Shown piece after piece: positions 33,493-57,683 of a stretch of DNA of 64,000 bases (its first letter is position 1; the number at the start of each line of letters is the position of its first letter). The position numbers and the translations under genes were made by a program. The stretch is from the IMG/VR virus record IMGVR_UViG_3300009181_007093, one strand, 5' to 3'. Origin of the DNA: a virus. The notes below the pieces were generated by a model. That model did no database searches and was not told the origin of the DNA. It worked only from the letters and a program-made list of their open reading frames with translations.

Positions 33493-36400
33493 TTACGCAG
33501 TACCCGCGAGACGAAAGCTAATACCGTTGCCTGCTGTCGATGTACTATTCGTACCACGAAACGAGGATGAAATGTTAAAACTGTTACTCGCCCAACCGCC
33601 GCCCCGGACCCCGCGAGACGAGCCAACTGTGCCATCCAGATCGTTCCACTGAAACACGTTGCCACTCTGATCAAACGTGCCGTAGAAGCTAGCGCTGTTG
33701 TTAAAGAAGCCTACGCCCGTTGAGTTGCCGAAGACATTATTGTAGTTGGCCTGATTTGGGCTACTGTGGTAAAAGGGATCGTTGCCCGGAGCAGTGTCAC
33801 TCTGCGTGGCGTAAGTCCAGTAACCCGCATTCGTGCTGCCGCCTTTGTAATATGCCGCCTTGTACCATTCGTTCTCAAGCGGTATCCGGTACGTCGGAGC
33901 TAAACCCGTATTCGGATTGGCGGCGTTAACAACCACAGCATTGCCAGAAGTTGCACCGTTCAAATTGTACGTACCGTTTTCTGTCGTCGTGCTGGTCTGG
34001 GCTCCGCTGGGCTGATCGTTGCTCATCCAGTTAGCAAACCTCGCACAGTCAAACCAGTTAATATGTGCTATCGGAAGATCTCCCGTGCTTTCCATAACGG
34101 CATACGTGTAACTTCCAGATGTGCCCGCACGACTGATTTTAGCAACGCCCTGCGACTGGTTCATAGAATCGTTGTAGAGAGAGTAGGAGTCGGTCGAGCC
34201 TACGGCATTTAAGAACGCAGTGTACTGCGAGCCCGTTACATGGTACTTCCCGATCTTGTATGAGTATGCCACGGCGCCGTAGCCAGGATTACTACTGCCT
34301 GCGTCAGCAGCGTTGCCAGGATTCCCAACCGTCACCATGATCATGGCAATACCACTCGATGTCTGCGTGACTGTTGCCAAGCCACCGAAATACCCAGTCC
34401 GTGTCGTAGTGATAGTCGCTGTTGAACTCGTTCCAAATGCCACGCCGGTTACTGTGACCAAACCAGTGCCGCTGATGGCTACCGAGCCTGATGCTGTTGC
34501 CGTACCAGCCCATGTGTAGCTGCCACTGTAGTTGCTGATTTGTACAGTGAAACCACCATTCGTTGCTGTTGGGGTTCCAAATGTTGGATTCAACGCAGCA
34601 CCCACCACAGACGTGGCCATGACGTTTGCCGTGCCACCGGCATACCCAGTCCGTGTCGTCGTGATTGTGGCGGTTGAACTCGTTCCAGGAGCGACTCCGG
34701 TTACGGTGACCAATCCAGTACCGCTGACGGCTACCGATCCTGACGCTGTTGCCGTACCAGCCCATGTGTACAAAGCGTCGTAGTTACTGATCTGCACAGT
34801 AAAGCCATCAGCCGTTGCTGTCGTGCTTCCAAATGTTGGAGTCCGCTCAGCAAGCAGTGAGATCTCCGTGACACTTGCCGAGCCACCGACATATCCAGAC
34901 CTCGTCGTAGTAATTGTAGCCGTTGAACTCGTCGCAGCAGCCACGCCGGTTACTGTGATTAATCCCGTGCCGCTTACATATACTGATCCCGATGCTGTTG
35001 CCGTACCAGCCCATGTGTACAAGCCGTTGTAGTTGCTGATCTGCACGGTAAAACCATGTGCATTTTTCGTTGGGGCTCCAAACGTCGGAGTTAGTGGAGC
35101 AAGCAGCGAGGTCTCCGTGACGTCTGCTGTGCCACCGACATATCCAGCTCTCGTCGTCGTAATCGTCGCTGTTGAACTCGTTCCAGGTGCCACGCCGGTT
35201 ACGGTGACCAAACCCGTGCCGCTGACTACTACTGATCCCGATGCTGTCGCCGTACCAGCCCACATGTAGGCATCATCGTAGTTGCTTATCTGCACTGTAA
35301 ACCCATCAGCCGTTCTTGTCGGGCTTCCAAATGTTGGAGTCTTCGCAGCAAACAGGGAGGTTGCCGTGACTCGCCCTATACCATCTGCGTATCCCGTTCT
35401 TTTAGTAACAATCGTAGCTGTTGAAGGCGTGTGCGGAGCCACTCCGGTTACTGTAACAAGACCGCTACCATTAATTGTTGCTGTTCCTGCTGCGGATGCC
35501 GTACCCGCCCATGTGTAGGCAGCGTCGTAGTTGCTAGTTTGTACGGTGAAGCCATCTGCCGTTGGTGTCGGGCTTCCAAATGTTGGTGTTAAAGCTGCAA
35601 TTGGAAGCGATCTTGAGAACACAGTGATTTTTCCTATAGCGTGTCCGATTTTTGTTGTTGTTATTGTTGCGGCTACATACGTGTCTGGAGCCACGCCGGT
35701 TACCGTAATCAAGCCCTCCCCTATTAAAAATCCTGTGAATCCTGTAATTCCTACTGCTCCAGAAGTTGCATCTCCAGACCACGTATAGCTTGAGTCATAG
35801 TTCGTAATTGGTATTGTAAAACCGTCTACAGTTCTTACTATTGAATTGTTCGCACTAACTTCGGGCGTCAATGCAGCAAGCAGTGATGTTGCCATGACTT
35901 GTGCGTTACTACTAACAGATCCCTGTGCAATCGAGCCACATGATAAGCATACAGTGGTAATTGTTGCTGTTGAACTGGTATTGGCAGCGACTCCTGTTAT
36001 TGTAACCAAACCTCCTCCGTCAATCGCAACAGAACCAGATGTTGCCGTTCCAGACCAGTAATAACTATTATTATAGTTCGTGATTTGTACATGGAAACCA
36101 TCTGCCGTTGGTGTGGTACTCCCAAACGTTGGAGTCAATCCAGCAGCCAGTGATACGCCAGTGACTGTTGATCCGCCGACAATACTGTTTTTTGTGGCGG
36201 TTATCGTAGCCGTGGAAGGTGTGTCCGCAGCCAAGCCGGTTACGGTGACCAGACCAGTGCCGTTAATGGCTACCGAACCTGATGCTGTGCCAGCCCATGA
36301 GTAACTCGAGTCATAGTTACTGATCTGCACCGTGAAACCACCATTCGTTGATGTTGGGCTTCCAAATGTTGGAATCAAGGCAGATGTTGATGTTACTGTT

Positions 36401-39400
36401 GCCGAGCCACTTGCATACCCCAATCTCGTAGTTGTGATTGTGGCTGTTGAGCTTGTGTCGGCAGCCAATCCTGTAACAGTAGCCAAGCCAGTGCCACTAA
36501 TTGATACTGATCCCGATGCGGTTGCAGTACCTGCCCATGTGTAGGCGGCATCATAGTTACTGATCATGACAGTGAAACCATCAGCCTTTGGTGTTATGGT
36601 ACCAAACGCTGGTGTTAGAGCTGCGTATAAAGATGTTTCTGTGGTTTGACTCCAACCTTCGACATACCCAGTCCTCGTCGTCGTGATCGTCACCGATGAA
36701 CTCACTCCAGTAGCTACGCCGGTTACGGCAACCAAACCACTGCCACTAATAGATGCGGCACCATAACCGGCAGCATTCCATGTGTAGGCAGCATCGTAGT
36801 TGCTGATCTGCACAGTGAAACCATCAGCCGTTGCTGTCTTGGTGCCAAAAGTTGGATTCAATGCTGCAAGCAGCGATGTTGCCGTGACTTCTGCAGTGCC
36901 GCCTGCATACCCATCTCTCACAGTTGTAATCGTAGCCGTCGAACTTGTCCCAACAGCCACTCCGGTTACAGTGACCAAACCTGTGCCGCTGACGGTTACC
37001 GTGCCTGCTGTTGCCGTGCCAGCCCAGTAATAACTGTAGTCATAGTTGCTGATCTGCACCTTGAACCCATCAGCGGTTGATGTCGGGCTTCCAAACGTTG
37101 GTGTCAGAGCCGAATCTAAAGATGTTTCTGTGACCGTAGCGGTTCCATTACTATGCCCAGTTTTTACTGTAGTGATCGTTGCTGTTGAGATCGTTAAAGT
37201 AGCCACGCTGTTCACAGTGACTAAACCGCTCCCACTGATGGTTACCGAACCTGATGCGGTTGCTGAACCGGACCATGTATAACTGGAATCATAGTTGCTG
37301 ATCTGCACAGTGAACCCATCAGCGGTTGATGTCGGCGTTCCAAACGCTGGCGTTAGGGCATCAGTAGGAAATGCTGTAATCTGTGCAGTTCCACCGACAT
37401 AACCAACTCTCGTAGTCGTGATCGTTGCCGTTGAACTTGTCGCAGCAGCCACGCCGGTAACCGTGACCAAACCACTCCCGCTGACGGCTACCGTGCCCGA
37501 TGCTGTTGCTGTGCCAGCCCATGAGTAGCTGCCACTGTAGTTACTGATCTGTACAGTGAAGCCACCAGCGGTTACTGTCGGCGTTCCAAACGCTGGCGTT
37601 AGGGCTGAGTTTAAAGATGTCTCTGTGACGGTTGCAGAGCCATTGTTAAATCCAGTTTTTGCTGTCGTGATCGTCGCTGTTGAACTCGTTCCAGTAGCCA
37701 CGCCGGTTACTGTAATCAAACCACCTCCACTAATGGATACCGAACCCGATGCTGTTGCCGTGCCGCCCCATGAGTAGGTTGAGTTGTAGTTACCTATGTA
37801 GACAGTGAAACCAGTAGCCGTTGGTGTCGGAGATCCAAACGTTGGCGTTAAAGCCGCTCCTAAGGATGTTGTCCAAACTTGTGCGGACCCATTGAGTGCA
37901 TTTGGCTTTGTAGTCGTGATCGTTGCCGTTGAACTCGTCGCCGCAGCAACACCGGTTACCGTGACCAATCCACTACCACTGACGTCTACCGAACCTGATG
38001 CTGTTGCCTCTCCACTCCATGAGAAACTGCCATCGTAGTTACTGATTTGCACAGTGAAGCCATCAGCCGTTGGAGTTATGCTCTCAAAATCTGGTATTAA
38101 CGCAGGGAGTAGTGGCACTAATCCTGTAATATAATTTCCGCCAGGAACCGAGTCCTCTTTGGTTGTTGTTATTGTTGCTGTCGAAACGGCTGCGGCAGGA
38201 ACACCGGTTACTGTTACTAAACCATAGCCATCAATAGTTGCAGAACCAAGGGACGCAGTACTACCCCATGTGTAGGTGGCATCATAATTTGTTACTTGTA
38301 CATAGAATCCATCAGCCGTTGCTGTCGGACTTCCAAATTGTGGAATCAACGCAGCATGCAGGGAAACCTCGGTAATCATATCGGAACCTTGCGGATAGAC
38401 TACGCATGGGAAGGGGGGATCTGGACACACAGTCCTATCCGTTTTTATTGTTAACACGGATGATGTGAATGGAGCTACTCCTGTTACGGTTACAAAGCCA
38501 TTGCCGTTAATAGTTGCTGTTCCTTGTGCTGTTGCTTCACCTGTCCATGTATAATTAGCGTTATAATTCGTGATTTGCACTGTAAAGCCGTCCGCAGTTT
38601 TTGTTGTAGCTCCAAATGTTGGAGTTAATGCGGCAAGTGAGGTTGCTGTGGTTTGGGCGTTTCCTTCATCTGAGTTATCTTTTTGAGTCGTTATTGTCGC
38701 CGTTGAAGCTGTGTTGTTAGCCACGCCGGTCACCGTGATGAAGCCAAGGCCTTCAACACCACCGCTGGAAATCGCTACAATGCCCGATGTTGCAGTACCA
38801 GTCCACGTGTAGCTGTCGTCATAGTTCGTAATTAATGTTATAAAACCATCAGCCGTTGATACTGTATCTCCAAATGTTGGAATTAACGCAGGAGCCAGCG
38901 ACTTATCTCCGATATCTGCCGTGCCAGGAGCACTGCCTGCTTTTTCCGTTGTGATCGTTGCCGTTGAATCCGTTTCAGCAGACACACCGGTTACCGTAAC
39001 CAAGCCCTCGCCGTCAACAGACGCTGAAATATTTCCAGTTAGAATTCGAAATGGTGCATCCGCTACCGCTGTACCAGCCCAAGTGTAACTGGAGTCATAA
39101 TTTGTTATTTGCACATAGAATCCATCATTTGTAGGATATGGCTCAGCAAATTCTGGAGTTAGTGCTTCCTCCAAAGAAATAGCCGTGATGTCAGCATTGA
39201 CGTCTCTAACAAAAACACCTCCTCCAGGTGCCACCCTTCCAGTGATAACGGAGTAATAAGGAGTTGTATCAACCGTATCATGTATTTTTATTGTTGCTGT
39301 GGAACTCACACCATCAGCAACGTTCGTTACTGTTACAACGCCGGTTTCATCGTCAATTGACACTGAACCACTTGCAGTAGCTACTCCTGACAAAGCGAAT

Positions 39401-41427
39401 GTGATGGTATCACTTTCGATAACTTGAATTTTAATATCATCAATGTTTGTAATGGATACAGTGAATCCGTCTGTGGTTGATGTTGTCTCGCCAAATTCTG
39501 GTGCAATACCAGAATCACATAAAGAAATATAATGAACTGCTGCTGGTATTGTTTCCTCTCCTCCACAAAACCATCCAGAAGTGTTAGGTCCTGAAGATGC
39601 CGCCTCATGTCCTGAATAAAGTATGCCGTAGTTGCACTGTGCTGCTGAACAGACAGTAGCACTGTATGCGATTCCATCCTCAGGGTCACATGGAGCCTGA
39701 CAAAGGCATCGCTCAGAAGGATTAGCAATCCACATCCAATCGGGATGGCTCGGCGGACCAGTTTCTAAATCGTGACATGAGCCGCTAACGAAACTGGATG
39801 TTCCAAATATTAGTGAATTTTGTCCAAGTGGATATCCCTCGCTAGGGACAAAATCTGGAGCAGCACAACAATATCCACAATCATCACAGCAGTCACCAGG
39901 ACAATCATCCGATAGCAACTCACTCTCACCAACCGGGGGAAAGCCAGTATGCAGAGAGCTTCCCATCGGGTTGGACTTCCCACCATAGCCAACTAATCCG
40001 CATGGTGGTGGGGCTGATTTTTCTTCACAGCCACCAGAAGTACAATCCCATTGAAGTTCTATGTCACAATAATAATATTCATAACACATGCTGTCACAAG
40101 CATTTGACGTTGTGTGTATAAAGCCTGCGTGAGCCCAGTAATCTCTGATCCACTCACCTTCACCACATCCTGTACTTGAATAACATACGTACCGAAACTG
40201 GCAAGAAGGTGCGGCACAGGAATTTGTTTCCCATAATGCTGGGGAACCTGTTCGGCAACAATGATAAGACTGTATGTCTGGATCTTCGCTGTCATCACGG
40301 ACACAGCCGGTATAAGTTTGTCCCGGTGGCTCAAGAGTCGGAGACACATCAGAACATTTATAATTAAGCGAATTATTAAAACATATTTCCACCTCCATCC
40401 CATTAACGAGCGTTTGAAAACTGAAAGCTGGTGCCGGGTCGTATTGCCCTGCGGGTGCAAAAAAATCATGATAATGCGAAGATGGCGTTACAAGGTTGGT
40501 AGCGGAGTATAAACTTATATGAACATTACCAGATGCGTCTACTAAACAGCCATCTGGTATTATTCCACTGAGCAGACCACCACTGTCGGTTGTTTTTGTT
40601 ATACAGTCACACAAACAATTCATATCGGTGGAGTCACATGTTGAATCTTCGCTCCATCTTCCTTCCAATCCTTTACCACGACCTATTGCGGTCGCAATAA
40701 CTTTGACTCCAGGCACATCGTCCGCCATAGGCGTTGTACATTCTATTTCTGTAACATCATCAACACAATGTGCGTATCCGATATATCCACTACGAGGTGC
40801 TATCGGATTCGAGGCTGCTAAAGTATCTAAATCATCGGAATCGGAATCTCTTAAAAAGCAGCAAGAGCCTAAGGGAGGACAGCCAGGCGGATCTCCATCG
40901 GGATTACAAGCGTAGACCGTGCCCGAACCCATTGTCCAGCCTGAATCTTGAGGGTTTCCGGCGGGTTCGAGGTCTTCGGCATGGTAACAGTCATATTGTG
41001 ATACAGGAGTACCTCCGACTGTAACGGGATCGCATATCCCATTATAACAACAAGCACCAGGACACGGACTATACCCAGCGTTCCCGTCACCATCAGTCTC
41101 GCAATCCGATCCGATAGCACCAGATGTTCCGCCATTGGCAGAGCATACTGTTATTGACACAAAAACACATACTCCTACATATGTTGATGTACAACCACAA
41201 CACGATCTATTGCATATGTCACAGTCGAAATCTTCTCCTTCTGCTTCATCAGCATAGGAATGCCATTCACCGCCACAGCAGTCGGCTTCTGTACTATCTT
41301 CAACGCATTCGATTATTGATGAAACACGTACTGCACCACAACACACCCCTGTTGGTGGAGGAGGTTTGCTTAGACTAAAAAGTATGTTTTGACTAACGTT
41401 TAGAGTTCCAGTTTCTCCGAGTTTCAT
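33493..41427 (-). CDS. giant tail fibre/adhesin: Cys-rich N-terminus, 20 Ig-like repeats, C-terminal FGE-sulfatase (C-type lectin fold) domain
   Basis: 2644 aa; repeat ALTPTFG..T.TADGFTVQISNYD..YTW.GTA..GLVTVTGVA..TSSTATITT; tip MVTVGNPGN..YKIGKYHVT..ENEWYKAAYY..DQSGNVFQW..RGG.W..FRLA. Confidence 0.8.
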   Translation of the reverse strand: MKLGETGTLNVSQNILFSLSKPPPPTGVCCGAVRVSSIIECVEDSTEADCCGGEWHSYADEAEGEDFDCDICNRSCCGCTSTYVGVCVFVSITVCSANGGTSGAIGSDCETDGDGNAGYSPCPGACCYNGICDPVTVGGTPVSQYDCYHAEDLEPAGNPQDSGWTMGSGTVYACNPDGDPPGCPPLGSCCFLRDSDSDDLDTLAASNPIAPRSGYIGYAHCVDDVTEIECTTPMADDVPGVKVIATAIGRGKGLEGRWSEDSTCDSTDMNCLCDCITKTTDSGGLLSGIIPDGCLVDASGNVHISLYSATNLVTPSSHYHDFFAPAGQYDPAPAFSFQTLVNGMEVEICFNNSLNYKCSDVSPTLEPPGQTYTGCVRDDSEDPDIQSYHCCRTGSPALWETNSCAAPSCQFRYVCYSSTGCGEGEWIRDYWAHAGFIHTTSNACDSMCYEYYYCDIELQWDCTSGGCEEKSAPPPCGLVGYGGKSNPMGSSLHTGFPPVGESELLSDDCPGDCCDDCGYCCAAPDFVPSEGYPLGQNSLIFGTSSFVSGSCHDLETGPPSHPDWMWIANPSERCLCQAPCDPEDGIAYSATVCSAAQCNYGILYSGHEAASSGPNTSGWFCGGEETIPAAVHYISLCDSGIAPEFGETTSTTDGFTVSITNIDDIKIQVIESDTITFALSGVATASGSVSIDDETGVVTVTNVADGVSSTATIKIHDTVDTTPYYSVITGRVAPGGGVFVRDVNADITAISLEEALTPEFAEPYPTNDGFYVQITNYDSSYTWAGTAVADAPFRILTGNISASVDGEGLVTVTGVSAETDSTATITTEKAGSAPGTADIGDKSLAPALIPTFGDTVSTADGFITLITNYDDSYTWTGTATSGIVAISSGGVEGLGFITVTGVANNTASTATITTQKDNSDEGNAQTTATSLAALTPTFGATTKTADGFTVQITNYNANYTWTGEATAQGTATINGNGFVTVTGVAPFTSSVLTIKTDRTVCPDPPFPCVVYPQGSDMITEVSLHAALIPQFGSPTATADGFYVQVTNYDATYTWGSTASLGSATIDGYGLVTVTGVPAAAVSTATITTTKEDSVPGGNYITGLVPLLPALIPDFESITPTADGFTVQISNYDGSFSWSGEATASGSVDVSGSGLVTVTGVAAATSSTATITTTKPNALNGSAQVWTTSLGAALTPTFGSPTPTATGFTVYIGNYNSTYSWGGTATASGSVSISGGGLITVTGVATGTSSTATITTAKTGFNNGSATVTETSLNSALTPAFGTPTVTAGGFTVQISNYSGSYSWAGTATASGTVAVSGSGLVTVTGVAAATSSTATITTTRVGYVGGTAQITAFPTDALTPAFGTPTSTADGFTVQISNYDSSYTWSGSATASGSVTISGSGLVTVNSVATLTISTATITTVKTGHSNGTATVTETSLDSALTPTFGSPTSTADGFKVQISNYDYSYYWAGTATAGTVTVSGTGLVTVTGVAVGTSSTATITTVRDGYAGGTAEVTATSLLAALNPTFGTKTATADGFTVQISNYDAAYTWNAAGYGAASISGSGLVAVTGVATGVSSSVTITTTRTGYVEGWSQTTETSLYAALTPAFGTITPKADGFTVMISNYDAAYTWAGTATASGSVSISGTGLATVTGLAADTSSTATITTTRLGYASGSATVTSTSALIPTFGSPTSTNGGFTVQISNYDSSYSWAGTASGSVAINGTGLVTVTGLAADTPSTATITATKNSIVGGSTVTGVSLAAGLTPTFGSTTPTADGFHVQITNYNNSYYWSGTATSGSVAIDGGGLVTITGVAANTSSTATITTVCLSCGSIAQGSVSSNAQVMATSLLAALTPEVSANNSIVRTVDGFTIPITNYDSSYTWSGDATSGAVGITGFTGFLIGEGLITVTGVAPDTYVAATITTTKIGHAIGKITVFSRSLPIAALTPTFGSPTPTADGFTVQTSNYDAAYTWAGTASAAGTATINGSGLVTVTGVAPHTPSTATIVTKRTGYADGIGRVTATSLFAAKTPTFGSPTRTADGFTVQISNYDDAYMWAGTATASGSVVVSGTGLVTVTGVAPGTSSTATITTTRAGYVGGTADVTETSLLAPLTPTFGAPTKNAHGFTVQISNYNGLYTWAGTATASGSVYVSGTGLITVTGVAAATSSTATITTTRSGYVGGSASVTEISLLAERTPTFGSTTATADGFTVQISNYDALYTWAGTATASGSVAVSGTGLVTVTGVAPGTSSTATITTTRTGYAGGTANVMATSVVGAALNPTFGTPTATNGGFTVQISNYSGSYTWAGTATASGSVAISGTGLVTVTGVAFGTSSTATITTTRTGYFGGLATVTQTSSGIAMIMVTVGNPGNAADAGSSNPGYGAVAYSYKIGKYHVTGSQYTAFLNAVGSTDSYSLYNDSMNQSQGVAKISRAGTSGSYTYAVMESTGDLPIAHINWFDCARFANWMSNDQPSGAQTSTTTENGTYNLNGATSGNAVVVNAANPNTGLAPTYRIPLENEWYKAAYYKGGSTNAGYWTYATQSDTAPGNDPFYHSSPNQANYNNVFGNSTGVGFFNNSASFYGTFDQSGNVFQWNDLDGTVGSSRGVRGGGWASNSFNISSSFRGTNSTSTAGNGISFRLAGTA
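34360..39505 (-). repeat. 20 tandem ~250-bp (~83-aa) coding repeats
   Basis: 20 copies counted by the P.F(G)..DGF.V.I.NY motif; the antisense ORF series in the track mirrors the period. Confidence 0.9.
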
Positions 41428-48848: not shown

Positions 48849-49565
48849 TTATTTTTCTTTCTTAAAGTCTATTGGACAAGCACCGCCAGAGCATTCAACA
48901 TGTGCTTTGTCAACATCTTCTTTTAACAAAGAGGTTATATGTCGGACAAAATTCTCATATTCAGCTTTTGTAACGGATTCCTCTGGTAGGTATTCATAGC
49001 TGCTACGATCTTCTTGGGGCATTACAGAACAACATTTAACAAGACTTTGTTTTTCTCTCAATGTGTCTGAAAATGTTTTAAAATCAATATTATTTGGATT
49101 ATATTTCAAAGTATAGCTAATTTGGTTTCCAGTGTCTTTTTCTAGTAAGTTTCCTTTTTCATCAACACCATGAATCCAGTATTTTTCACCTAATTGAAGC
49201 CATGTGTACTGTTCTTCAGGAGTTGCTTCAGCAGCGGTTACTAATTTATCTTCCATTCCGAGTTCTGTAATAACCGGTGTTGTTGGAAATCCTATAATTA
49301 CAGTGTTCTGATAACTTTTTAGTTCTTTGTTTGGATATCCTGATTTCTCATACTTTTTAATAAGTGGATCAGATTTGCTAAATTGCACCCATCTCATATA
49401 CCATCTCATTGAAGGTAAGTGCCATCCTTCTGTAAGTCCAAAAAGTTTTGAGGTCGTATTATGAACAACTGATCCATTTGACATTTGATATGTATGAGTA
49501 TCTTCTACTTCTATATCAACAGTTATTTCTTTTTGGTCGCATTTTTTGATTGATTTTATTTTCAC
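48849..49565 (-). CDS. nrdJ: class II ribonucleotide reductase C-terminal fragment fused to split intein C-half
   Basis: 36-aa IntC ending VVHN then TTSKLFGLTEGWH; PEE, C-terminal CSGGACP. Confidence 0.88.
   Translation of the reverse strand: MKIKSIKKCDQKEITVDIEVEDTHTYQMSNGSVVHNTTSKLFGLTEGWHLPSMRWYMRWVQFSKSDPLIKKYEKSGYPNKELKSYQNTVIIGFPTTPVITELGMEDKLVTAAEATPEEQYTWLQLGEKYWIHGVDEKGNLLEKDTGNQISYTLKYNPNNIDFKTFSDTLREKQSLVKCCSVMPQEDRSSYEYLPEESVTKAEYENFVRHITSLLKEDVDKAHVECSGGACPIDFKKEK
49458..49565 (-). mobile_element. split intein C-fragment (36 aa, +1 Thr)
   Basis: MKIKSIKK..TVDIEVEDTHTY..NGSVVHN|T (blocks F and G). Confidence 0.9.
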
Positions 49566-49566
49566 T

Positions 49567-50802
49567 TTAATTTCCTTTTTCTATTTGAACTAATAATTTT
49601 TTAAAAGATAATTCTTTGTTTGCTTTCCATTCCGATTCCCAGACAATAAACACTTTATATCCTTTGGATAAAAAATATTCTTCTCTTAGCTTATCATAAT
49701 TTCTTATTTCTAATGATGTTTTGTCTAGCCATGGATTAGGTTTATCTAAGTCATCAAACTTATTTGGATTGGCATGGAATATATCTCCATAAAATTCAAC
49801 AATTACTTTATCTTCTAAAACAACAATATCTGGCTTGAAACACCTAACGCCCAAAATTTTCGAATCATCTATATTCAAACCAATTATAAAGTTATTCTCT
49901 CCATATTTAACATTTTTATTTTTAAAATGATTAACTATCATTTCTGCTAATTCAATTTCTGGACCGGATGCTTTAGATCGAATACTCTCAGTTCTTTTTA
50001 TTACCATTTCATGGTATAGTTTTGAACCTAAATCCCCATATAATTCTATGAATTTTTGCTCACTTAAAGTTTTTAGTTTACATATTTTTTCGTATTGTTC
50101 AGTGCCTTCTTTTACGCCTAATTTTTTAACATAATAATCCAAAGAACCCATTCCCATTCTGTTTTCTTTCCATAAATCATAAACAATTTTACCTTGTTCT
50201 TTTCCGAATCGAATTATACAATTTTCTACACCATGTCCTTTTGACTTGCAGTATTTTTCATAGTTAATAAGCCCTTTGTCTTCTCCGTATTTTTTAACAA
50301 AAAAGGATAAATTTCTAGATTGAATTAAAGATATAGCCTCTTTTGCTGATTCTTTTGAAAGTCCTTGAGCTAGCCAATATTCTAAACATTTAGAATTACT
50401 TTTTTTGTTTTTATTGATATATTCTTCGTACTTTTGAAGTCCCTCTTTTTTGCCATGCCTTGCAATAAAATTATCCAATGAGTTAATTGACTTAGAAGAA
50501 TGTTGTTTTTTAATTTGTAGAGCCATTTCAGTTCCAAATCTTGATTCTAAATTTCTAAATCCTACACTTAACTTGGAGTTCTTTTCTTTATATTTTATAG
50601 GACCATCAATATTACCGTATTTTTTAACATAATGCTCTAAATTTCCTTTTCCTTTAATATTTTGCATTCTATTTTCATATTTAATTTTACCTTCTTCTTC
50701 TCCATGTTTCCAAATATAACTCTCTAATGAGCCGCCTTTAAGCCAACGAGTAATTCCTTTTTCTTCTCCATAAACATCAACATATTCTTTTCTAGTTTTC
50801 AT
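49567..50802 (-). CDS. Vsr/DUF559-like homing endonuclease with KYG.E.G repeats, separating the split intein halves
   Basis: Repeated (K/R)(Y/F/H)G...G helices; ASGPE, PDIV, IVEFYGDIFHANP, KGYKVFIVWESEW. Confidence 0.82.
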   Translation of the reverse strand: MKTRKEYVDVYGEEKGITRWLKGGSLESYIWKHGEEEGKIKYENRMQNIKGKGNLEHYVKKYGNIDGPIKYKEKNSKLSVGFRNLESRFGTEMALQIKKQHSSKSINSLDNFIARHGKKEGLQKYEEYINKNKKSNSKCLEYWLAQGLSKESAKEAISLIQSRNLSFFVKKYGEDKGLINYEKYCKSKGHGVENCIIRFGKEQGKIVYDLWKENRMGMGSLDYYVKKLGVKEGTEQYEKICKLKTLSEQKFIELYGDLGSKLYHEMVIKRTESIRSKASGPEIELAEMIVNHFKNKNVKYGENNFIIGLNIDDSKILGVRCFKPDIVVLEDKVIVEFYGDIFHANPNKFDDLDKPNPWLDKTSLEIRNYDKLREEYFLSKGYKVFIVWESEWKANKELSFKKLLVQIEKGN

Positions 50803-50870
50803 TCATTTACTTTCATATACAAGGCATTCAACGCTTTATATTATATACACTATTAAACCTAAAAATTGGC

Positions 50871-51203
50871 TTAATAGTCAAAAGAGATAATATCGTCAGA
50901 TTCTAATAATTCATCAACTCTAACCCAATCTCTATTGGATGTCAATAATTGATGGTTACCAGTAAATTTATACACGTTGCCATCCTCAAATTCTATTTCA
51001 AATACTTCTTTAACTCCATTGCAATACAATTTGGTTATCAATTTTTCTTCATTATTTTTGTCTTTAATTTTTATTTCTTTATCAACTTCAAACCATGAAT
51101 TTTCGACCATATTTTCAACGTCTATACTAAAAATATCATTAAATAGATATTTGAAAGAAATGATGCCTAAATTAGTTTTAATTTCATTGTTTAAAGAATT
51201 ACA
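50871..51203 (-). mobile_element. split intein N-fragment (110 aa)
   Basis: Begins CNSLNNEIKT after KPAG; NG.KEVFEI.FEDG..KFTGNHQLLT..W..V.EL...D.I then stop. Confidence 0.9.
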
Positions 51204-53756
51204 TCCAGCAGGCTTAATTGTGGTATCAGAATGAGGAACATTTACACCAATTTTCTTTGAGTATTCTCTGGCTTCCTCTTGCACAGCTCTTTTGAATCGT
51301 GCCATCGTCATCCAGAAATCTTTTGATTTTTCTTCATCTATAAGATCTTTAAATCCAAGCTTAAAAAACTTCCATGCAAATTCATGAATTCCAGTTATTC
51401 CAACGCCGATTCTATTGGTTCTTTTAACTTCTTTTTTATAAACACTATCCATTGTGTTTACTCTAATCAAAGCTCTTGTGACACATCTAAATGCATCTTC
51501 AGCTTCTTCCAAAGTTTCAGCATGATAAGGCACTACATCGGCAATAGTGCAAAAAGCACCCCATATGGCAATTGAAATTTCACCACAATTATGTGCAAGG
51601 ATTCCGTTTGCATCAAAACAATGAACTTCGTCAACAATACAATCGTAAACTGGTTCTACTGTCAATTTTTCTATAGACGCAATTCGGGCAGTAAACCTTT
51701 CCTTATGTGGATTTCTCTTAGAAGATCGTATGCACTCTTCTAGTATTTTCATTTTCTTTACTTCTGAAAATCCAATTTTTCCAAAAAATAATTCAATATT
51801 ATTTTTTGAAATCACTAAATCATGTATCGCTAAACATTTGTATTTTTTCTCTCCATTTGGCATCTTTTTTATGCAAGATTCTTTTCTGCTCTTGTATATT
51901 GTAGAAACTATTCCTAAACGAGATAGCATTCTTTGTACGACGTGCAGCCTATCTAGATTAACTTGTGATAATCTTACACTTATTCCTTTGTCTATTTTAG
52001 AACAGACAGCACCATCTGCATCAAAAATTCCCCTAATAAATCCTCTGTAAAATTCACTACTAGTTTTTTCTAATCTATCAGTCAAGTTCTTACTTACAGG
52101 TTCAATTCTCCCTTCTTCGAGCCACCCGTGAGAAAATGTACCTTCACCTTCCCAAGAATTGTTTTCTTGATTTGTAAGTACAATTTTTTCTCCAACCTTA
52201 ATATCTTTTAGTTCTTTCCATTCTTTTTCTATTTTGTAATCACCATTGAGCTTTCTTTTTCTTGAGTTTTCTACCATCAATTTATGGTTGTCTGTTATCT
52301 TAATTTTATAACCCCGATCAGTAGTTACTTCATAGACAACTTTGTCCCCAGTTTTAAAGAACCCAGTTGAAAGGTAGGATTTACCATTAACAGTTGCATA
52401 AAAAGGTTTATTTATAAGTTCTTCAACTTGTCTTGGACCTTCTTTTGTTGTAATCCATGTATCTTTTGAAACACATGGGTTAGTTATCATAAAGTTTTGT
52501 TTTTTTATGGCTTTTTTCAACAATCTGTTTATGTAGAGTGCTGTGTCTTCTTGAAGTGCATACTTTTTACTTCCAACTAAATCGTCACTTTCCTTAATTA
52601 GTTTTTCTGTTCCGATCCTGTCCTGGTTTAGTTTATCAACGTTTATAAATCCTGGTTCTCCGGTTCCGTCGCCATACGAAGCGGAAGCAGTAAGCTTGTA
52701 TACGTTTCTGGCGTGTTTCGTAATGTCTTCATTATATTCTTCAGATCCTTTTTTTACATTAAGCAATCTCCAGAATTCACTATCAACAGCTATGCTGTTA
52801 TTTGATGACCATAAAAACCCCATTGGGCTTATATTCTTTCTTAATTCAGTTATTTCATCGACACTTTTACCTGTAAATTCTATTGGTCTTTTTATTGTGA
52901 TAAATTCTAATATTGTTTTATCGCGCCAATTTTTTGTTGACATTCTTGCTGCTCTTCTTGCACCTCCGACAAGAACGCATTCTGCAAAATAGTGATCGAT
53001 ATATATTGTCTGCATCCAACGAGGCAAACCAGTTGCCTTCATTGTTGCGGACTTATTAAAGGCATTCATTAATGGCACAGGACCGCTTGCTGGTCTACGT
53101 TGCATTCCATTAATAGGAGATCCTTTTGCTCTTACATTTGAAAAATCTAGTATGAACAATTTGTCTTTGTGTATTTTTTCAAAAGCTGCGTTTTCCCATA
53201 TTTCTAGTGCTTTTGCCCAGCCTTCTCTTGTATCTTCTACAGTGTGCCACAGCACATCTTTTCCATTGCCGTATTTATGCTGTGCATCACGAACAGACTC
53301 ATGGGCGGAAAAATCAAAATTGGAATGTTCTTCACTTAAAACGCAACGCAGAGCAGGTGCATTATCCCAATCTACGAGCATCATGTCATCATCATACGCC
53401 CGTCCTACCCCAGATCCATTCATTAAAAGGTAAAACAGCATAAAACTCGTACTAGAAGTTGCACAATTTGTGTAAATTTCTAAATTTCTAGTAGGTTGAG
53501 TTTCGTCTCCATGCTGTAAGTGCCTACCACTCATTAGTGTTGTCGCACTCAAAAGATGTTTGTGTAGTGCTTTATATTCTTCTTCTTGTTCCTCTTTACT
53601 GCGACATAGCATCGAGTTTCCAAGTGCAACTCGATGAGCAACATCTGCCCAGTTTTCCCATTTTCCATCAGGTTTTTTTCTTAATATAGTTCTTTCCGCG
53701 ACTGCCTGTCCCATTCCTGCATGGAAGTTTTTCTGCTTGCTGTGTTGCTTTGACAT
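50871..53756 (-). CDS. nrdJ: class II ribonucleotide reductase N-terminal fragment with cis intein and split intein N-half
   Basis: SGRHL, NC, GSGVG, ASGP, GGARRAA, GEPGF, TNP|intein|CGEI, RIGVGITG, TTIKPAG|IntN. Confidence 0.9.
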   Translation of the reverse strand: MSKQHSKQKNFHAGMGQAVAERTILRKKPDGKWENWADVAHRVALGNSMLCRSKEEQEEEYKALHKHLLSATTLMSGRHLQHGDETQPTRNLEIYTNCATSSTSFMLFYLLMNGSGVGRAYDDDMMLVDWDNAPALRCVLSEEHSNFDFSAHESVRDAQHKYGNGKDVLWHTVEDTREGWAKALEIWENAAFEKIHKDKLFILDFSNVRAKGSPINGMQRRPASGPVPLMNAFNKSATMKATGLPRWMQTIYIDHYFAECVLVGGARRAARMSTKNWRDKTILEFITIKRPIEFTGKSVDEITELRKNISPMGFLWSSNNSIAVDSEFWRLLNVKKGSEEYNEDITKHARNVYKLTASASYGDGTGEPGFINVDKLNQDRIGTEKLIKESDDLVGSKKYALQEDTALYINRLLKKAIKKQNFMITNPCVSKDTWITTKEGPRQVEELINKPFYATVNGKSYLSTGFFKTGDKVVYEVTTDRGYKIKITDNHKLMVENSRKRKLNGDYKIEKEWKELKDIKVGEKIVLTNQENNSWEGEGTFSHGWLEEGRIEPVSKNLTDRLEKTSSEFYRGFIRGIFDADGAVCSKIDKGISVRLSQVNLDRLHVVQRMLSRLGIVSTIYKSRKESCIKKMPNGEKKYKCLAIHDLVISKNNIELFFGKIGFSEVKKMKILEECIRSSKRNPHKERFTARIASIEKLTVEPVYDCIVDEVHCFDANGILAHNCGEISIAIWGAFCTIADVVPYHAETLEEAEDAFRCVTRALIRVNTMDSVYKKEVKRTNRIGVGITGIHEFAWKFFKLGFKDLIDEEKSKDFWMTMARFKRAVQEEAREYSKKIGVNVPHSDTTIKPAGCNSLNNEIKTNLGIISFKYLFNDIFSIDVENMVENSWFEVDKEIKIKDKNNEEKLITKLYCNGVKEVFEIEFEDGNVYKFTGNHQLLTSNRDWVRVDELLESDDIISFDY
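51588..52475 (-). mobile_element. cis intein (296 aa) at the RNR NP|CGE thiyl-radical site, with truncated LAGLIDADG
   Basis: CVSKDTWITT, ITDNH, FIRGIFDADG, VYD..ANGILAHN|C. Confidence 0.92.
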
Positions 53757-53846: not shown

Positions 53847-55883
53847 CTAGGTTTTTTTTGTAAATCCATTTTCATGAATTAAATTTATTCTAGAAGCTCC
53901 TGTTAGCATTTGTATTAGATTTTGGTCGTGCGTTGTAATGAAAATTTGTTTATTTTCTGATAATTCTCTAATCATATTATATATTCCTTGTACACCGAGC
54001 TGATCGACATTTGTAGTCACTTCATCTAAAAAAATCAAGCTAGGAATAGCATCTGAACTTATTTCCGTTATGTATGCAAAAGAGTGTCCTACTGCCAAGT
54101 TTAATCTTCTTCTTTGTCCTGTGCTCATTGCATAATAAATATATGGATCTCCATCTGCTGGATTTCTTTCAATTTTTTCTTGTAATTCATTATTGAACGA
54201 CAACGTTATCATATTATCGATCAGAAAATGTAGCCAGTAGTTTATTCTTTTGTTAAGATCTGGAATGATTCCATCTATTATCCATTTTCTTATACCTTGC
54301 TCACCAAATCCTGAAATCCAATAATCAAAGTATGGAATTTCTTTTTCTAGATTTTTTATACTTTTTTCTTTTAGTTTAACAATTCCATTTATTTTATTAA
54401 GTTCTTCCTGATCATTTTTTATAATTTCTTCAAAAGGAGACGCAGATTTCTGTTCTTCTTTTTTTGAATTGAGTTGATTTTTTAAATTTTCTATTTTTTG
54501 TTGTATTAAAAGTTCGTCACTTTCTGCTTTTGGCTCTTTTATTTGACTTAATTGCGTAAAATTTATTCTTAGTTTATTAGAGCCAGAGTCTAAATCCTTT
54601 ATTTTTGTTTCTAGCTGTGTGCGTATTTTTTTTAGTTTTTCTTGTTTGTCTTTCAGACCAGAAGATTCTAAATCAAAACCTTTTTTTGCTATTAAGTCAA
54701 CTTTTATAAGTTCATTAATGCTTTCTATTTCTTTTTGTATTTTTTTTACATATTCATCAATATTTTTAGATTCCACTACGCTTTTACATTGGTTGCATAC
54801 AGTTCCTTCTACTTCTTTTTCTAAATCTTCTACTTCTTTTTGTTTTTTATTTTTTTCTTCTATTCTGTACTTTGCTTCTCTTGAAAAATCTCTAAATCTT
54901 TCGGTAAAAGACTGGGAACTTTCTTTTTGCAATGATTCTTTTTCTTCAACCAAAGCCAGTTTGCTAAGATATTCTTTCTTGTCTTTTTCTATTTTGGGTA
55001 TTTTTTCGTTTATATCTTTTATACAGTCTTGTGCCTCTTGATACAAAACAAGAGCTTCGCCGGAATTAGACGTTTTAAGATGTATTTTATTTGCTTCTAT
55101 TTTTTCTTCTATTTCTTTTTGTTCTTTTTTCTTTTGTTCTATCCAAAGCTGTTTTTTATTTTCTGTTAAAAGCAATCTTTTTTCTGCATCTTCTTTATTA
55201 ACATAAAGTATGGAATATTCTTTTGTTTGAAGATCTAGTTTATTTTTTGTTTCTTTTTTTAAAGTTTTAGCATTTTCAAACCATTCTCTGTATACACCGA
55301 GAGACATTAAGTTTTCTACAATTTCTCTTTTGGTGTTTTTATCGCACTCCAAGAAGCAGGATCTTTGGTCATCGGTAAAAATACATATATTGATAAATCC
55401 TTCATATGAGAGACCAACTATTTCATCTATTTTTTTTTGTGTGGCAGACATACTTCCTAATGTAATTTCTGTTGTGTCATCCCACTTTCCTTCTTCGCTT
55501 TCCCACAGCCTTAAGCTGTTTTTATTTTTTTTGCCTCCTTCTACTCTCGTTCTTACAACTTTGTATTTGTCAAACTCCAGAACACATTTGCAGTCTTTTC
55601 CTATTTTGTTGTGTACTACATCATCTACATTAATTTTTTCTGGTCTTTTGATAGTTTTTCCGTATAAAGAAAAAACTATTATTTCTTGAATGCTGCTTTT
55701 TCCTGTGCCATTGCTGCTTACCTTGGAATCGCTTGGCATTAAATCGTCTGTTGGCTTAGCGTCTTTGTTTACGCCTTCTATAAGAACAATATTCCCATAG
55801 TCCTTGAAGTTTATTTCTATTCCTTCTGGACCAAACGGCAAAAAGTTCCAAGCACTTGCTGACTTGAAAACCAAATTACGCAT
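53847..55883 (-). CDS. sbcC: SbcC/Rad50/T4 gp46-like ATPase
   Basis: NFL.FG, NGTGKSS, coiled coil with CNQC hook, MSTGQRRR signature, FLDE, ITTH. Confidence 0.92.
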   Translation of the reverse strand: MRNLVFKSASAWNFLPFGPEGIEINFKDYGNIVLIEGVNKDAKPTDDLMPSDSKVSSNGTGKSSIQEIIVFSLYGKTIKRPEKINVDDVVHNKIGKDCKCVLEFDKYKVVRTRVEGGKKNKNSLRLWESEEGKWDDTTEITLGSMSATQKKIDEIVGLSYEGFINICIFTDDQRSCFLECDKNTKREIVENLMSLGVYREWFENAKTLKKETKNKLDLQTKEYSILYVNKEDAEKRLLLTENKKQLWIEQKKKEQKEIEEKIEANKIHLKTSNSGEALVLYQEAQDCIKDINEKIPKIEKDKKEYLSKLALVEEKESLQKESSQSFTERFRDFSREAKYRIEEKNKKQKEVEDLEKEVEGTVCNQCKSVVESKNIDEYVKKIQKEIESINELIKVDLIAKKGFDLESSGLKDKQEKLKKIRTQLETKIKDLDSGSNKLRINFTQLSQIKEPKAESDELLIQQKIENLKNQLNSKKEEQKSASPFEEIIKNDQEELNKINGIVKLKEKSIKNLEKEIPYFDYWISGFGEQGIRKWIIDGIIPDLNKRINYWLHFLIDNMITLSFNNELQEKIERNPADGDPYIYYAMSTGQRRRLNLAVGHSFAYITEISSDAIPSLIFLDEVTTNVDQLGVQGIYNMIRELSENKQIFITTHDQNLIQMLTGASRINLIHENGFTKKT

Positions 55884-56632
55884 TAATTTCTCTTTTTATT
55901 CTTGTTTTTGCTTTTTTTGTTTGAAACTAATCTTCGTGATGATATTGTCTGTTTTTCTATAAAGTCTACATATTCTGCTTTATATTTTTCGTCAAATAAG
56001 ATGTTTTTATTCTTAAGAATATCTTTTAAAGGACCAGATGGATGAATAACTTTTTGGATAACACCGTTAACTTCAATAGACTTTTTTATATTAAGAACTT
56101 TGTGGATTTCTGTAAAGTTCCACGTATTGTCCACAAGTGTTACTAAGTTAGAAAAATCCAATAGCAATGAATTGAATATTGAGTAATGACTTACAACATC
56201 GTGCCCTAATCGAATAAAATTCTCTATATCTTTTATGAAACTCCATTGGTAAAAAGGAGCTGCTAAAAAGCCGTGGTTGTGATTATTAGATATGATAAAT
56301 TTATCTGAAATTATTTCAAATATTTCATCTATGCTTTCTTGGAAATACACATCAGCATCCCAGTATACGTAATTTCCACTATAATCTTTTGCATAGTTTG
56401 CTATTGCATCTATTGTTTTGGTTCTAACGTCAGGAAGTTCGGGATTTGAATTTAGGAAAAATACATTTTTTGAGATAAGTTTGTTTTTTGTAAAATCCGA
56501 TAAACCACAATCTACAACGAAAACATTTCCTTCATACTTTGCTTTTTCTCGCAAGGAAAGTATCCATGATGAACCCCATCTTGGCCAATAGGACTCATCG
56601 AATCCAGTTATGATAAAATTTTCTTTACTCAT
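55883..56632 (-). CDS. GT-A fold glycosyltransferase-like protein
   Basis: ITGFDESY, VVDCGLS, YWDADVYFQ (DxD), WN, IH. Confidence 0.6.
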   Translation of the reverse strand: MSKENFIITGFDESYWPRWGSSWILSLREKAKYEGNVFVVDCGLSDFTKNKLISKNVFFLNSNPELPDVRTKTIDAIANYAKDYSGNYVYWDADVYFQESIDEIFEIISDKFIISNNHNHGFLAAPFYQWSFIKDIENFIRLGHDVVSHYSIFNSLLLDFSNLVTLVDNTWNFTEIHKVLNIKKSIEVNGVIQKVIHPSGPLKDILKNKNILFDEKYKAEYVDFIEKQTISSRRLVSNKKSKNKNKKRN

Positions 56633-57683
56633 TGGTTTCTGCTCCTTTGCATATTTTTTTGCCTATGCTTATTAAAGTATCTCTTTCTAAATTATTAAGA
56701 CCAACTTCATCAACATATTTCGACAACATTTCTTCTCCATTCAAAAGTATTGCTTTTGCATCGTTAATGATATGTTCTTTAATGTCTGGCTTTTGTTGTT
56801 TGATTTCTAAGCTTCCTAGCTTATTCTTTTGAAGCATATCGTTTTTAAGGGTAACTAAGTCTGTGCTTCCTATGTCTTTAACTTTTATTTGTATAAAGTT
56901 TCCTTCTAAATCATATTTTTCACATTCTTTTTCATTGATAATCAAGTGTTTAGGAGAAAAATTATTTTCTATGTAAGTTTTTTTATTTTTTGTGCCGTCA
57001 AACATTATTATATGTTTTTTTTGAAAAGCTTCTCCAAAACTAAGCTGCAAAGGAGATCCAATATATTCTACTTTTTTTGTTACTTTTTGTTCTGCATGAT
57101 AATGACCTAAAAATGTATGTTTGTAATCTTCAAACAGGGCAGCATTTACCGTAACCATATCGCCATCATGCTCTATGCATACATCGGAATATTGATCCAT
57201 ATGAAGTTTTGCTCCATCAATAGCCAAATGACCTAAAGCATACTCTTGAATGCCTTCTTGCCCTTTTAATTGATTTAAAGAGTTTATTGGATTGTGCGTA
57301 AATGGAATAAAATCCCAATAACTATCTTCTATTTTTATTCTTTCTGGCTTTGCAATAACACGAAGTCCAGGCAAGGAAGACAAAGGAAATACACTGCTAA
57401 TACTTGTGTTGTCATTAAACCATATGTCATGATTTCCAAGTAATAAAAATAAATTAATTCCGGAATCTGTGAGATTTTCTCGTAGTACTTCAAACGTTTT
57501 TTGATATGTGTAGACTTCTATTTTTTGTCGATCATGGTAAAAATCGCCACCAAAAAGTATGTTTTTAATTCCCTCGTCTCGAGCAGTTTTAAAAACCCAT
57601 CTCAATACTTCCAAACAATCTTCTAGACGTTCGTTTTTACGCTTATGTGGGAAAATATGAAGATCAGAAAAAAGTAATATCAT
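56625..57683 (-). CDS. sbcD: SbcD/Mre11/T4 gp47-like nuclease
   Basis: FSDLH, GGDFYH, GNHD, LGHYH, YIGSP. Confidence 0.92.
   Translation of the reverse strand: MILLFSDLHIFPHKRKNERLEDCLEVLRWVFKTARDEGIKNILFGGDFYHDRQKIEVYTYQKTFEVLRENLTDSGINLFLLLGNHDIWFNDNTSISSVFPLSSLPGLRVIAKPERIKIEDSYWDFIPFTHNPINSLNQLKGQEGIQEYALGHLAIDGAKLHMDQYSDVCIEHDGDMVTVNAALFEDYKHTFLGHYHAEQKVTKKVEYIGSPLQLSFGEAFQKKHIIMFDGTKNKKTYIENNFSPKHLIINEKECEKYDLEGNFIQIKVKDIGSTDLVTLKNDMLQKNKLGSLEIKQQKPDIKEHIINDAKAILLNGEEMLSKYVDEVGLNNLERDTLISIGKKICKGAETNE

What the first reader, a model, noticed from the sequence alone, without database searches (positions are those of the whole stretch)
48849..53756. Fractured class II RNR: naturally split intein (+1 Thr) interrupted by a Vsr-like endonuclease gene
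Seen: the N-gene ends TTIKPAG|C + 110-aa acidic IntN. The C-gene starts with a 36-aa IntC with a Lys-rich start, ending HN|TTSKLFG. Ligation restores the conserved RNR motif KPAGTTS. A 411-aa endonuclease ORF sits between the halves. Known: this 'fractured gene' layout has been described in phage metagenomes (gp41-1, NrdJ-1, IMPDH-1 split inteins). Inference: this one uses the KPxG|T site with a Thr nucleophile, so it may be a new orthogonal split intein of biotechnological value.
Basis: partly seen in the sequence, partly recalled or inferred. Interest (0 to 1): 0.8.

Follow-up and report, generated by a model that had tools for sequence, protein, structure and literature searches.

The report
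Phage RNR gene fractured by split intein
A large uncultured phage encodes its vitamin-B12-dependent ribonucleotide reductase in two pieces that a naturally split intein must stitch together, with a selfish homing-endonuclease gene between the pieces; this layout is known, but the insertion site has not been described in the papers I could search, and the cassette is still present or absent among near-identical phages.

Summary
The N gene (50871-53756, minus strand) ends ...TTIKPAG followed by a 110-aa acidic IntN. A 411-aa endonuclease gene follows (49567-50802). The C gene (48849-49565, GTG start) opens with a 36-aa IntC ending HN, then TTSKLFG.

Removing the inteins gives a 757-aa reductase that aligns without gaps to an intein-free relative.

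The enzyme therefore needs both cis- and trans-splicing.

The endonuclease belongs to the known Vsr-like 'EDxHD' homing family.

The element is not unique:
- 78 of the 120 best C-gene relatives start with this IntC, and 76 of those have Thr at +1.
- Relatives carry an HNH endonuclease gene instead, a decayed one, or a contiguous mini-intein.
- The same intein family sits at the homologous loop of other RNR types.

Alleles 99% identical to this gene lack the whole cassette and read KPAGTTS directly, so the cassette is recently mobile.

Verdict: a real, probably functional fractured gene, and a new member of the kind described by Dassa et al. 2009. Its site differs from the NrdJ-1 site. Splicing and orthogonality are untested. 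Earlier notes of this scan cover the same stretch only, not other DNA.

The parts
50871..53756 (-). nrdJ-N precursor gene (961 aa + stop): N-extein, cis intein, extein segment 2, IntN
   Evidence: ORF. Pfam hits RNR_Alpha, RNR-II_ins_dom, Ribonuc_red_lgC, Intein_splicing and LAGLIDADG_3. Matches L. leichmannii RTPR 1L1L at E=1e-13.
52476..53756 (-). Extein segment 1 (aa 1-427), ends ...FMITNP
   Evidence: 86% identical to the intein-free L002.
51588..52475 (-). Contiguous 296-aa LAGLIDADG intein (CVSKDTW...ILAHN), followed by +1 Cys of the NPCGEI thiyl-radical motif
   Evidence: Pfam Intein_splicing 1.4e-20 and LAGLIDADG_3 2.2e-17. Boundaries come from L002, which reads ITNPCGEISIA. Allelic inteins are in L004, L014, L029, L038 and L039.
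51204..51587 (-). Extein segment 2 (aa 724-851), CGEISIA...TTIKPAG
   Evidence: 96% aa identity to L002. Third-codon-position identity is 0.71 here against 0.48 in the flanking exteins.
50874..51203 (-). IntN, 110 aa: Cys1, block B TGNH at residues 81-84, net charge -11
   Evidence: phmmer hits DnaE/DnaB inteins at E=8e-5 and NrdJ-1 at E=5e-3. 41-55% identical IntN sequences sit at the same site in other loci.
50817..50878 (-). Two RNA hairpins in the 68-nt spacer upstream of the endonuclease gene; the first (11 bp) overlaps the IntN stop codon
   Evidence: strand folding gives MFE -19.8 kcal/mol, z = -3.8, and 0 of 200 shuffles as stable. Dassa 2009 reports hairpins in 15 of 16 endonuclease 5' UTRs.
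49567..50802 (-). Free-standing homing endonuclease gene (411 aa): about 9 helix-pair repeats (aa 1-275) plus an EDxHD/Vsr-like nuclease (aa ~280-411)
   Evidence: - Profile A1 hits Vsr 1CW0 at E=1e-4 over the catalytic residues.
- Invariant D325, E336, H343 and D370.
- Model pLDDT 88.
- Foldseek finds 1cw0 (prob 1.0) and I-Bth0305I 3r3p (TMt 0.61).
- Relatives are annotated as VSR endonuclease in Aes123/Aes508 and PTm1.
49458..49565 (-). IntC, 36 aa (GTG start; MKIKSIKK...TVDIEVEDTHTYQMSNGSVVHN)
   Evidence: It aligns residue for residue with the 36-aa Npu DnaE IntC in the family profile. 78 of the 120 best homologue clusters start with this IntC.
48849..49457 (-). C-extein (202 aa + stop), TTSKLFG...ECSGGACPIDFKKEK, with the C-terminal redox Cys pair
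   Evidence: 84% identical to L002. The 1L1L alignment covers KPSGTVAKL and the CxGGACPI tail.

Best explanation
This is a functional fractured nrdJ gene of a large uncultured phage.

Three co-oriented genes are probably transcribed together:
- nrdJ-N: extein, LAGLIDADG intein, extein, IntN.
- A free-standing EDxHD (Vsr-like) homing endonuclease gene.
- nrdJ-C: IntC, extein.

Proposed steps after translation:
1. The LAGLIDADG intein splices in cis and restores NP-CGEI around the thiyl-radical cysteine.
2. The acidic IntN and the Lys-rich start of IntC associate into a HINT fold.
3. They carry out class-1 trans-splicing: N-S acyl shift at Cys1, trans-esterification to the Thr+1 hydroxyl, cyclisation of Asn36 of IntC, then an O-N shift.
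4. The product is a 757-aa monomeric B12-dependent reductase with its KPAG-TTS loop intact.

The endonuclease most likely cuts nrdJ alleles that lack the cassette during co-infection. Repair then copies IntN-endonuclease-IntC into them.

Shown here: the anatomy, the exact junctions, the catalytic residues, family membership of every part, purifying selection on the exteins, and cassette presence/absence among 99%-identical alleles.

Inferred: splicing itself, co-transcription, endonuclease activity and its target.
For: Junctions and exteins
- The spliced exteins total 757 aa and align without gaps to the intein-free L002 ORF. Identity is 87%, pN 0.09 and pS 0.75.
- L002 matches RTPR 1L1L at E=6e-38 across TNPCGEIS, KPSGT and the C-terminal CxGGACP.

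Intein features
- Cys1, TGNH, the block F Asp, and HN followed by Thr+1 are all present.
- The profile of the contiguous alleles hits Npu DnaE intein at E=2e-10, and the split point matches that of DnaE.
- A contiguous allele folds as a HINT domain: pLDDT 92, TM 0.7-0.84 to many solved inteins.
- Terminal HN is kept in 78 of 78 IntC-bearing clusters, and +1 is Thr in 76 of 78.

Endonuclease
- The EDxHD residues are invariant. There is a Vsr profile hit and a structural match to the I-Bth0305I fold.

Mobility
- 1053-aa alleles (P0285, P0288, P0291) are 99.1-99.7% identical. They keep the cis intein but read TTIKPAGTTSKLFG with no cassette.
- The same split intein occurs with an HNH endonuclease gene (L003, L036, L038, L039, L057, L104, L125), with a decayed one (L086), and as a contiguous mini-intein (L040, L051, L124).

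Not an assembly artefact
- The same gene ends are seen on dozens of contigs from ENA, JGI and Logan.
Against: - No experiment shows splicing, reductase activity or endonuclease cleavage.
- The window's own IntN/IntC pair could not be folded as a complex, so the HINT fold is shown only for a 41%-identical contiguous allele.
- The endonuclease stop and the IntC start do not overlap (1-nt gap). Most loci of Dassa 2009 overlap by 6-69 bp.
- No convincing promoter or terminator signal was found: 25 promoter-like sites against 25.5 expected.
- No host and no second RNR could be checked, because no whole genome is held.
Confidence: 0.8

Rival explanations
1. The halves are made but never covalently joined. 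Either the intein remnants serve only as non-covalent docking domains, as in the Aeromonas phage Aeh1 NrdA split by mobE, or the gene is a decaying relic and the phage relies on the host RNR.
For: A fragmented phage RNR assembled without splicing is documented (PMC3045599, listed). Dwivedi et al. 2013 describe apparently degenerating split nrdA genes in Campylobacter phages. Splicing was not tested here.
Against: - All splicing residues are kept in the window and across diverged relatives, including HN in 78 of 78.
- The exteins have no frameshift or stop and are under strong purifying selection.
- The cassette-bearing allele is the commoner one among 99%-identical genomes: about 18 contigs against 3.
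Confidence: 0.12
2. Assembly artefact: a contiguous intein with a nested endonuclease was mis-joined or frameshifted, creating false stop and start codons.
For: The window comes from uncultured material.
Against: - The identical N-gene end (...ISFDY, stop) and the identical C-gene start recur on dozens of independently assembled contigs from three sources.
- The same split point is found in 41-55%-identical relatives that carry a different endonuclease gene.
- The endonuclease is on its own reading frame, with its own start after a 68-nt spacer.
Confidence: 0.02
3. The cassette is fixed and immobile: the endonuclease is inactive or domesticated, and the cassette-free alleles arose by rare precise deletion rather than being homing targets.
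For: L086 shows that the endonuclease gene can decay while the split persists. Dassa's gp41-7 locus has no endonuclease.
Against: - The endonuclease is full length relative to its 58%-identical homologue P0129, and every catalytic residue is intact.
- It is identical or near-identical on about 30 contigs.
- A tract of unusually low synonymous divergence from L002 ends at the two intein sites. This fits recombination at these sites.
Confidence: 0.15

Closest known systems
Fractured genes NrdJ-1 / NrdJ-2 (and gp41-1, IMPDH-1, NrdA-2) of Dassa et al. 2009, NAR 37:2560 (PMC2677866)
   Same: Same architecture: a phage DNA-metabolism gene in two co-oriented ORFs, IntN at the end of the first, IntC at the start of the second, a free-standing homing endonuclease gene between them, and a hairpin in the endonuclease 5' UTR. 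Same host enzyme class (NrdJ). Cys1, class-1 chemistry.
   Different: - Site: NrdJ-1/2 sit one residue after the thiyl-radical Cys site. This one sits about 128 residues downstream, in the KPAG|TTS loop.
- The +1 residue is Thr, not Ser.
- Sizes are 110 and 36 aa, against 110 and 46 aa tabulated for NrdJ-1.
- Sequence similarity to NrdJ-1 is marginal: E=5e-3 over 31 residues, and 18% identity in the structural alignment.
- The same gene also carries a cis-splicing LAGLIDADG intein.
I-Bth0305I and the EDxHD (Vsr-like) homing endonuclease family (Taylor et al. 2011, PMC3239194)
   Same: C-terminal Vsr-fold nuclease with the conserved Asp/Glu/His/Asp set, including the family-specific Glu at the position of Vsr Phe62. 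N-terminal DNA-binding region.
   Different: The N-terminal region is an array of about 9 helix-pair repeats (KYGxExGxxxY, period ~28 aa), rather than the two NUMOD-2-like motifs described for I-Bth0305I. It is free-standing inside a split intein rather than encoded in an intron. phmmer does not connect it to 3R3P by sequence.
Npu/Ssp DnaE naturally split inteins
   Same: Closest solved relatives by profile (E=2e-10). Same split position. The 36-aa IntC aligns end to end. The IntN is acidic and the start of IntC is basic.
   Different: About 23% identity. Thr+1 instead of Cys+1. The halves are adjacent with an endonuclease gene between them, not at distant loci. Phage, not cyanobacterial.
Aes123 PolB1 / Tenacibaculum phage PTm1 split DNA polymerase with 'VSR endonuclease'
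   Same: Cultured-phage examples of the same layout, with endonucleases detectably related to this one (24-33% identity).
   Different: The host gene is DNA polymerase. The Aes123 intein is cysteine-less (PMC11923092). No cultured phage in the INPHARED copy carries the RNR-loop split intein.
Multi-intein genes of Trichodesmium erythraeum (four inteins in one RNR gene; split dnaE with further inteins; Liu et al. 2003, as cited in PMC2874743)
   Same: Precedent for several inteins in one RNR gene. By its title, the dnaE paper is also a precedent for cis plus trans inteins in one gene.
   Different: These are cellular genes with no endonuclease gene between the halves. I could not read those papers, so the site comparison is not made.

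Membership tests
Class 1 intein (HINT splicing domain) | Block A nucleophile (Cys/Ser) as first intein residue | tested here: met
   Cys follows TTIKPAG. It is invariant in the allelic inteins.
Class 1 intein (HINT splicing domain) | Block B TxxH | tested here: met
   TGNH at IntN residues 81-84. It aligns to block B of DnaE/DnaB inteins.
Class 1 intein (HINT splicing domain) | Blocks F/G: conserved Asp, penultimate His, terminal Asn, and a +1 Cys/Ser/Thr | tested here: met
   IntC reads ...TVDIEVEDTHTYQMSNGSVVHN followed by T. HN is kept in 78 of 78 relatives and Thr+1 in 76 of 78.
Class 1 intein (HINT splicing domain) | HINT fold | tested here: inconclusive
   Met for the 41%-identical contiguous allele L040: pLDDT 92, TM 0.7-0.84 to solved inteins. 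The window's two halves could not be folded together with these tools.
Class 1 intein (HINT splicing domain) | Protein (trans-)splicing activity | not testable with these tools
   Needs co-expression and mass spectrometry.
Fractured gene (Dassa et al. 2009) | Host gene in two co-oriented ORFs that end and start with the intein halves | tested here: met
Fractured gene (Dassa et al. 2009) | Free-standing homing endonuclease gene between the halves | tested here: met
   411-aa EDxHD ORF at 49567-50802.
Fractured gene (Dassa et al. 2009) | Hairpin in the endonuclease 5' UTR | tested here: met
   z = -3.8. There is no exact TATAAATA late-promoter box in the spacer.
Fractured gene (Dassa et al. 2009) | Overlap of the endonuclease 3' end with the IntC 5' end (seen in 15 of their loci; not obligatory) | tested here: not met
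   1-nt gap, TAA-A-GTG. Relatives with an HNH gene overlap by 4 nt.
EDxHD / Vsr-like homing endonucleases | Conserved Asp (Vsr D51), family-specific Glu (at Vsr F62), His (Vsr H69), Asp (Vsr D97) | tested here: met
   D325, E336, H343 and D370 are invariant in 25 sequences. They align to these Vsr positions.
EDxHD / Vsr-like homing endonucleases | Vsr-type nuclease fold | tested here: met
   Foldseek finds 1cw0 (prob 1.00) and 3r3p (TMt 0.61, prob 0.94). E-values are weak because the 411-aa query is mostly repeats.
EDxHD / Vsr-like homing endonucleases | Site-specific cleavage of the uninterrupted allele | not testable with these tools
   The candidate target is the empty-site allele (P0285, P0288, P0291).
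Monomeric class II RNR (RTPR type, L. leichmannii) | NPCGEI thiyl loop, KPxGT loop, C-terminal CxGGACP pair, full-length similarity to 1L1L | tested here: met
   (E=6e-38 for the intein-free orthologue). All motifs are present in the window's exteins.

The most novel reading that the evidence does not exclude
The window's element may represent an abundant, so far undescribed split-intein family. It targets the conserved (K/A)P(A/S/T)G|(T/S) loop of class I and class II RNRs in uncultured phages.

A complete natural series exists:
- empty site;
- contiguous mini-intein;
- split with an HNH gene;
- split with an EDxHD gene;
- split with a decayed gene.

Empty and filled alleles also exist at 99% identity. 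That would make the origin of gene fracturing, and homing driven by a free-standing endonuclease, directly testable. It would also offer a DnaE-like 110/36 Cys1/Thr+1 split intein that could be orthogonal to current tools.
Probability: 0.45. Interest if true: 0.55.

Novelty: new member of a known kind. Interest (0 to 1): 0.42.

Why it matters
Split inteins from fractured phage genes (gp41-1, NrdJ-1, IMPDH-1) are among the fastest protein-ligation tools.
- A further family with at most about 23% identity to any solved intein adds a candidate. It has the compact 110/36 DnaE-type split and a Thr+1 junction.
- Near-identical genomes differ only by the cassette, and related loci hold contiguous, HNH-bearing, EDxHD-bearing and endonuclease-decayed forms. 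This gives a rare natural series for testing how a free-standing endonuclease breaks a gene and how the cassette spreads.
- For phage biology, an essential dNTP-supply enzyme here depends on two independent splicing events.

None of this overturns current understanding.

Tried and rejected
I could not fetch the DNA of the 99%-identical empty-site alleles, or of P0129, the closest endonuclease relative.
- No whole genome is held for the window. Other RNRs, other copies of the endonuclease and the host could not be checked.
- A genome-contig scan with the intein profile found no relative among 158 pattern matches. The family was therefore not seen in cellular reference genomes, but only two peptide patterns were used.
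- The degenerate junction pattern in metagenome contigs gave 104 stretches. Only about a dozen of those examined held the RNR C-extein; the rest were chance matches.
- A scan for close relatives of the endonuclease in IMG/VR found none.
- An apparent IntC match in Tunturiibacter phage Tunturi_5 was a spurious alignment extension. That RNR is uninterrupted at both sites and has a ~220-aa N-terminal extension.
- The RNR of Rhizobium phage L338C is annotated in several overlapping ORFs, but with no intein or endonuclease between them. I did not pursue it.
- Sigma-70 promoter and terminator scans were at background level.
- Literature searches found no description of a split intein at this RNR loop. 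InBase and subscription papers are outside the library, so prior description cannot be excluded.
Full report
**Anatomy.** Three co-oriented genes lie on the minus strand.

- The first gene (50871-53756, 961 aa) carries class II RNR domains plus Intein_splicing and LAGLIDADG_3.
  - Its last 110 residues follow ...TTIKPAG. They begin with Cys, contain TGNH at positions 81-84, and have net charge -11 and pI 4.4.
- After a 68-nt spacer comes a 411-aa ORF (49567-50802).
- One base after its TAA stop, a GTG opens a 238-aa ORF (48849-49565). An AAGGA Shine-Dalgarno-like sequence lies 7 nt upstream of the GTG.
  - Its first 36 residues end ...SVVHN and are followed by TTSKLFG.
  - The frame has a TAG six codons upstream of the GTG, and homologues start at the same residue (MKIKSIKK).

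Residues 428-723 of the N gene (window 52475-51588) are a contiguous 296-aa LAGLIDADG intein between ITNP and CGEI. It sits directly before the thiyl-radical cysteine. Dassa et al. 2009 call this the most frequent intein site in RNRs. The enzyme therefore needs one cis- and one trans-splicing event.

**The exteins are one gene.**
- L002 is an IMG/VR contig of 381 kb. It encodes an uninterrupted 757-aa orthologue that reads ITNPCGEISIA and TTIKPAGTTSKLFG.
- The window's three extein segments also add up to 757 aa and align to it without a gap. Identity is 87%, with pN 0.09 against a saturated pS of 0.75.
- The orthologue matches the monomeric L. leichmannii ribonucleoside-triphosphate reductase 1L1L at E=6e-38. 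The match covers the NPCGEIS loop, KPSGTVAKL and the C-terminal CxGGACPI.

**The intein.**
- IntN alone hits DnaE and DnaB mini-inteins at E about 1e-4, and NrdJ-1 only at E=5e-3.
- Contiguous alleles of the same intein exist at the same site (L040 = P0124, L051, L124).
  - Their profile hits Npu DnaE intein at E=2e-10.
  - The C-terminal 36 residues align end to end with the DnaE IntC, so the split is at the canonical position.
  - The L040 allele folds as a HINT domain: pLDDT 92, TM 0.7-0.84 to many solved inteins, and at most 23% identity to any.

**The endonuclease.**
- The 50%-identity library holds 2980 representatives at E<=1e-3.
- In an alignment of 25 members, D325, E336, H343 and D370 are invariant.
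- The profile hits E. coli Vsr at E=1e-4. Those residues align to Vsr D51, F62, H69 and D97. The Glu at F62 is the feature Dassa et al. singled out for their Vsr-like family.
- The AlphaFold model (pLDDT 88) has about nine helix-pair repeats followed by a nuclease domain. That domain matches Vsr (prob 1.0) and the I-Bth0305I catalytic domain 3R3P (TMt 0.61).
- Cultured-phage relatives annotated 'VSR endonuclease' split DNA polymerase genes in Aes123/Aes508, CP21 and PTm1.
- The spacer upstream folds into two hairpins (z = -3.8). This is typical of these loci.

**How common it is.**
- Of the 120 best C-gene homologue clusters, 78 begin with a 35-39-aa IntC. All 78 end in HN, and 76 have Thr at +1.
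- In fetched loci the same split intein carries an HNH endonuclease gene (L003/L037, L036, L038, L039, L057, L104, L125). L086 keeps only a remnant of it.
- L038 and L039 also carry the cis intein.
- Among the 80 best EDxHD loci in IMG/VR, 11 sit between IntN and IntC of this intein family at the homologous loop of other RNR types. The N-exteins there end VKPSG, VAPTG or TAPAG. L145 adds an RNR-type IntC/C-extein junction with no detected IntN.
- P0128 shows the intein in a class I enzyme with an ATP cone.
- No record in the INPHARED phage collection has it.

**Mobility.**
- The 90% cluster of the N gene contains 1053-aa members (P0285, P0288, P0291).
  - They are 99.1-99.7% identical to the window's gene with the cis intein kept.
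  - They read TTIKPAGTTSKLFG with no cassette.
- Cassette-bearing genes are on about 18 contigs (N) and about 40 contigs (C). The empty allele is on 3.
- Against L002, third-codon-position identity is 0.71 in the extein segment between the two intein sites and 0.48 outside it (Fisher p = 1.6e-6). Nine other pairs show no such rise. This fits a recombination tract bounded by the two mobile elements.

**Comparison with the literature.**
- The layout is that of Dassa et al. 2009. The site differs from their NrdJ-1/2 and NrdA sites.
- The endonuclease belongs to the EDxHD family of Taylor et al. 2011.
- Cys1/Thr+1 pairs make up about 12% of Cys1 inteins, according to a 2025 review.
- I found no paper describing this site. 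InBase was not available.

**Verdict.** This is a real, very probably functional fractured gene, and a new member of a known kind. Its extra value lies in the natural allelic series and in a possible new ligation tool. Both need bench tests.

Noticed in passing
window 4002-6929 (-): A 975-aa DEAD/DEAH-box helicase ORF carries a LAGLIDADG_3 domain at aa 469-560. It is probably a third intein in this window. Its boundaries were not mapped.
   Followed up: no
window 51204-51587 (-) versus L002: The extein segment between the two intein sites has third-codon identity 0.71 to the intein-free L002, against 0.48 in the flanking exteins (p = 1.6e-6). Nine other pairs show no such rise. The recombination tract appears to be bounded by the two mobile elements.
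   Followed up: partly
window 49978-50802 (-): The N-terminal 275 aa of the endonuclease form about nine helix-pair repeats (period ~28 aa, motif KYGxExGxxxY). They have no Pfam match and only weak PPR/TPR-like structural hits. This may be a modular DNA-binding array. It is shared by thousands of relatives.
   Followed up: partly
window 55883-56632 (-): A 249-aa ORF without a Pfam hit sits between the SbcD-like (56625-57683) and SbcC-like (53847-55883) genes, overlapping both ends.
   Followed up: no
L086:1478-2049: A relative in which the HNH endonuclease gene has shrunk to a ~40-codon remnant, while IntN and IntC remain separate ORFs. It is a natural 'endonuclease-lost' stage of a fractured gene.
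   Followed up: partly
L035 (Rhizobium phage vB_RleS_L338C, NC_023502.1 62379-64433): The class II RNR is annotated as three overlapping ORFs with no intein or endonuclease between them. This may reflect frameshifts or sequencing errors.
   Followed up: no
window 33493-41427 (-): A 2644-aa ORF with about 50% G+C lies in a genome of about 30-35% G+C. Other notes of this scan already cover it.
   Followed up: no
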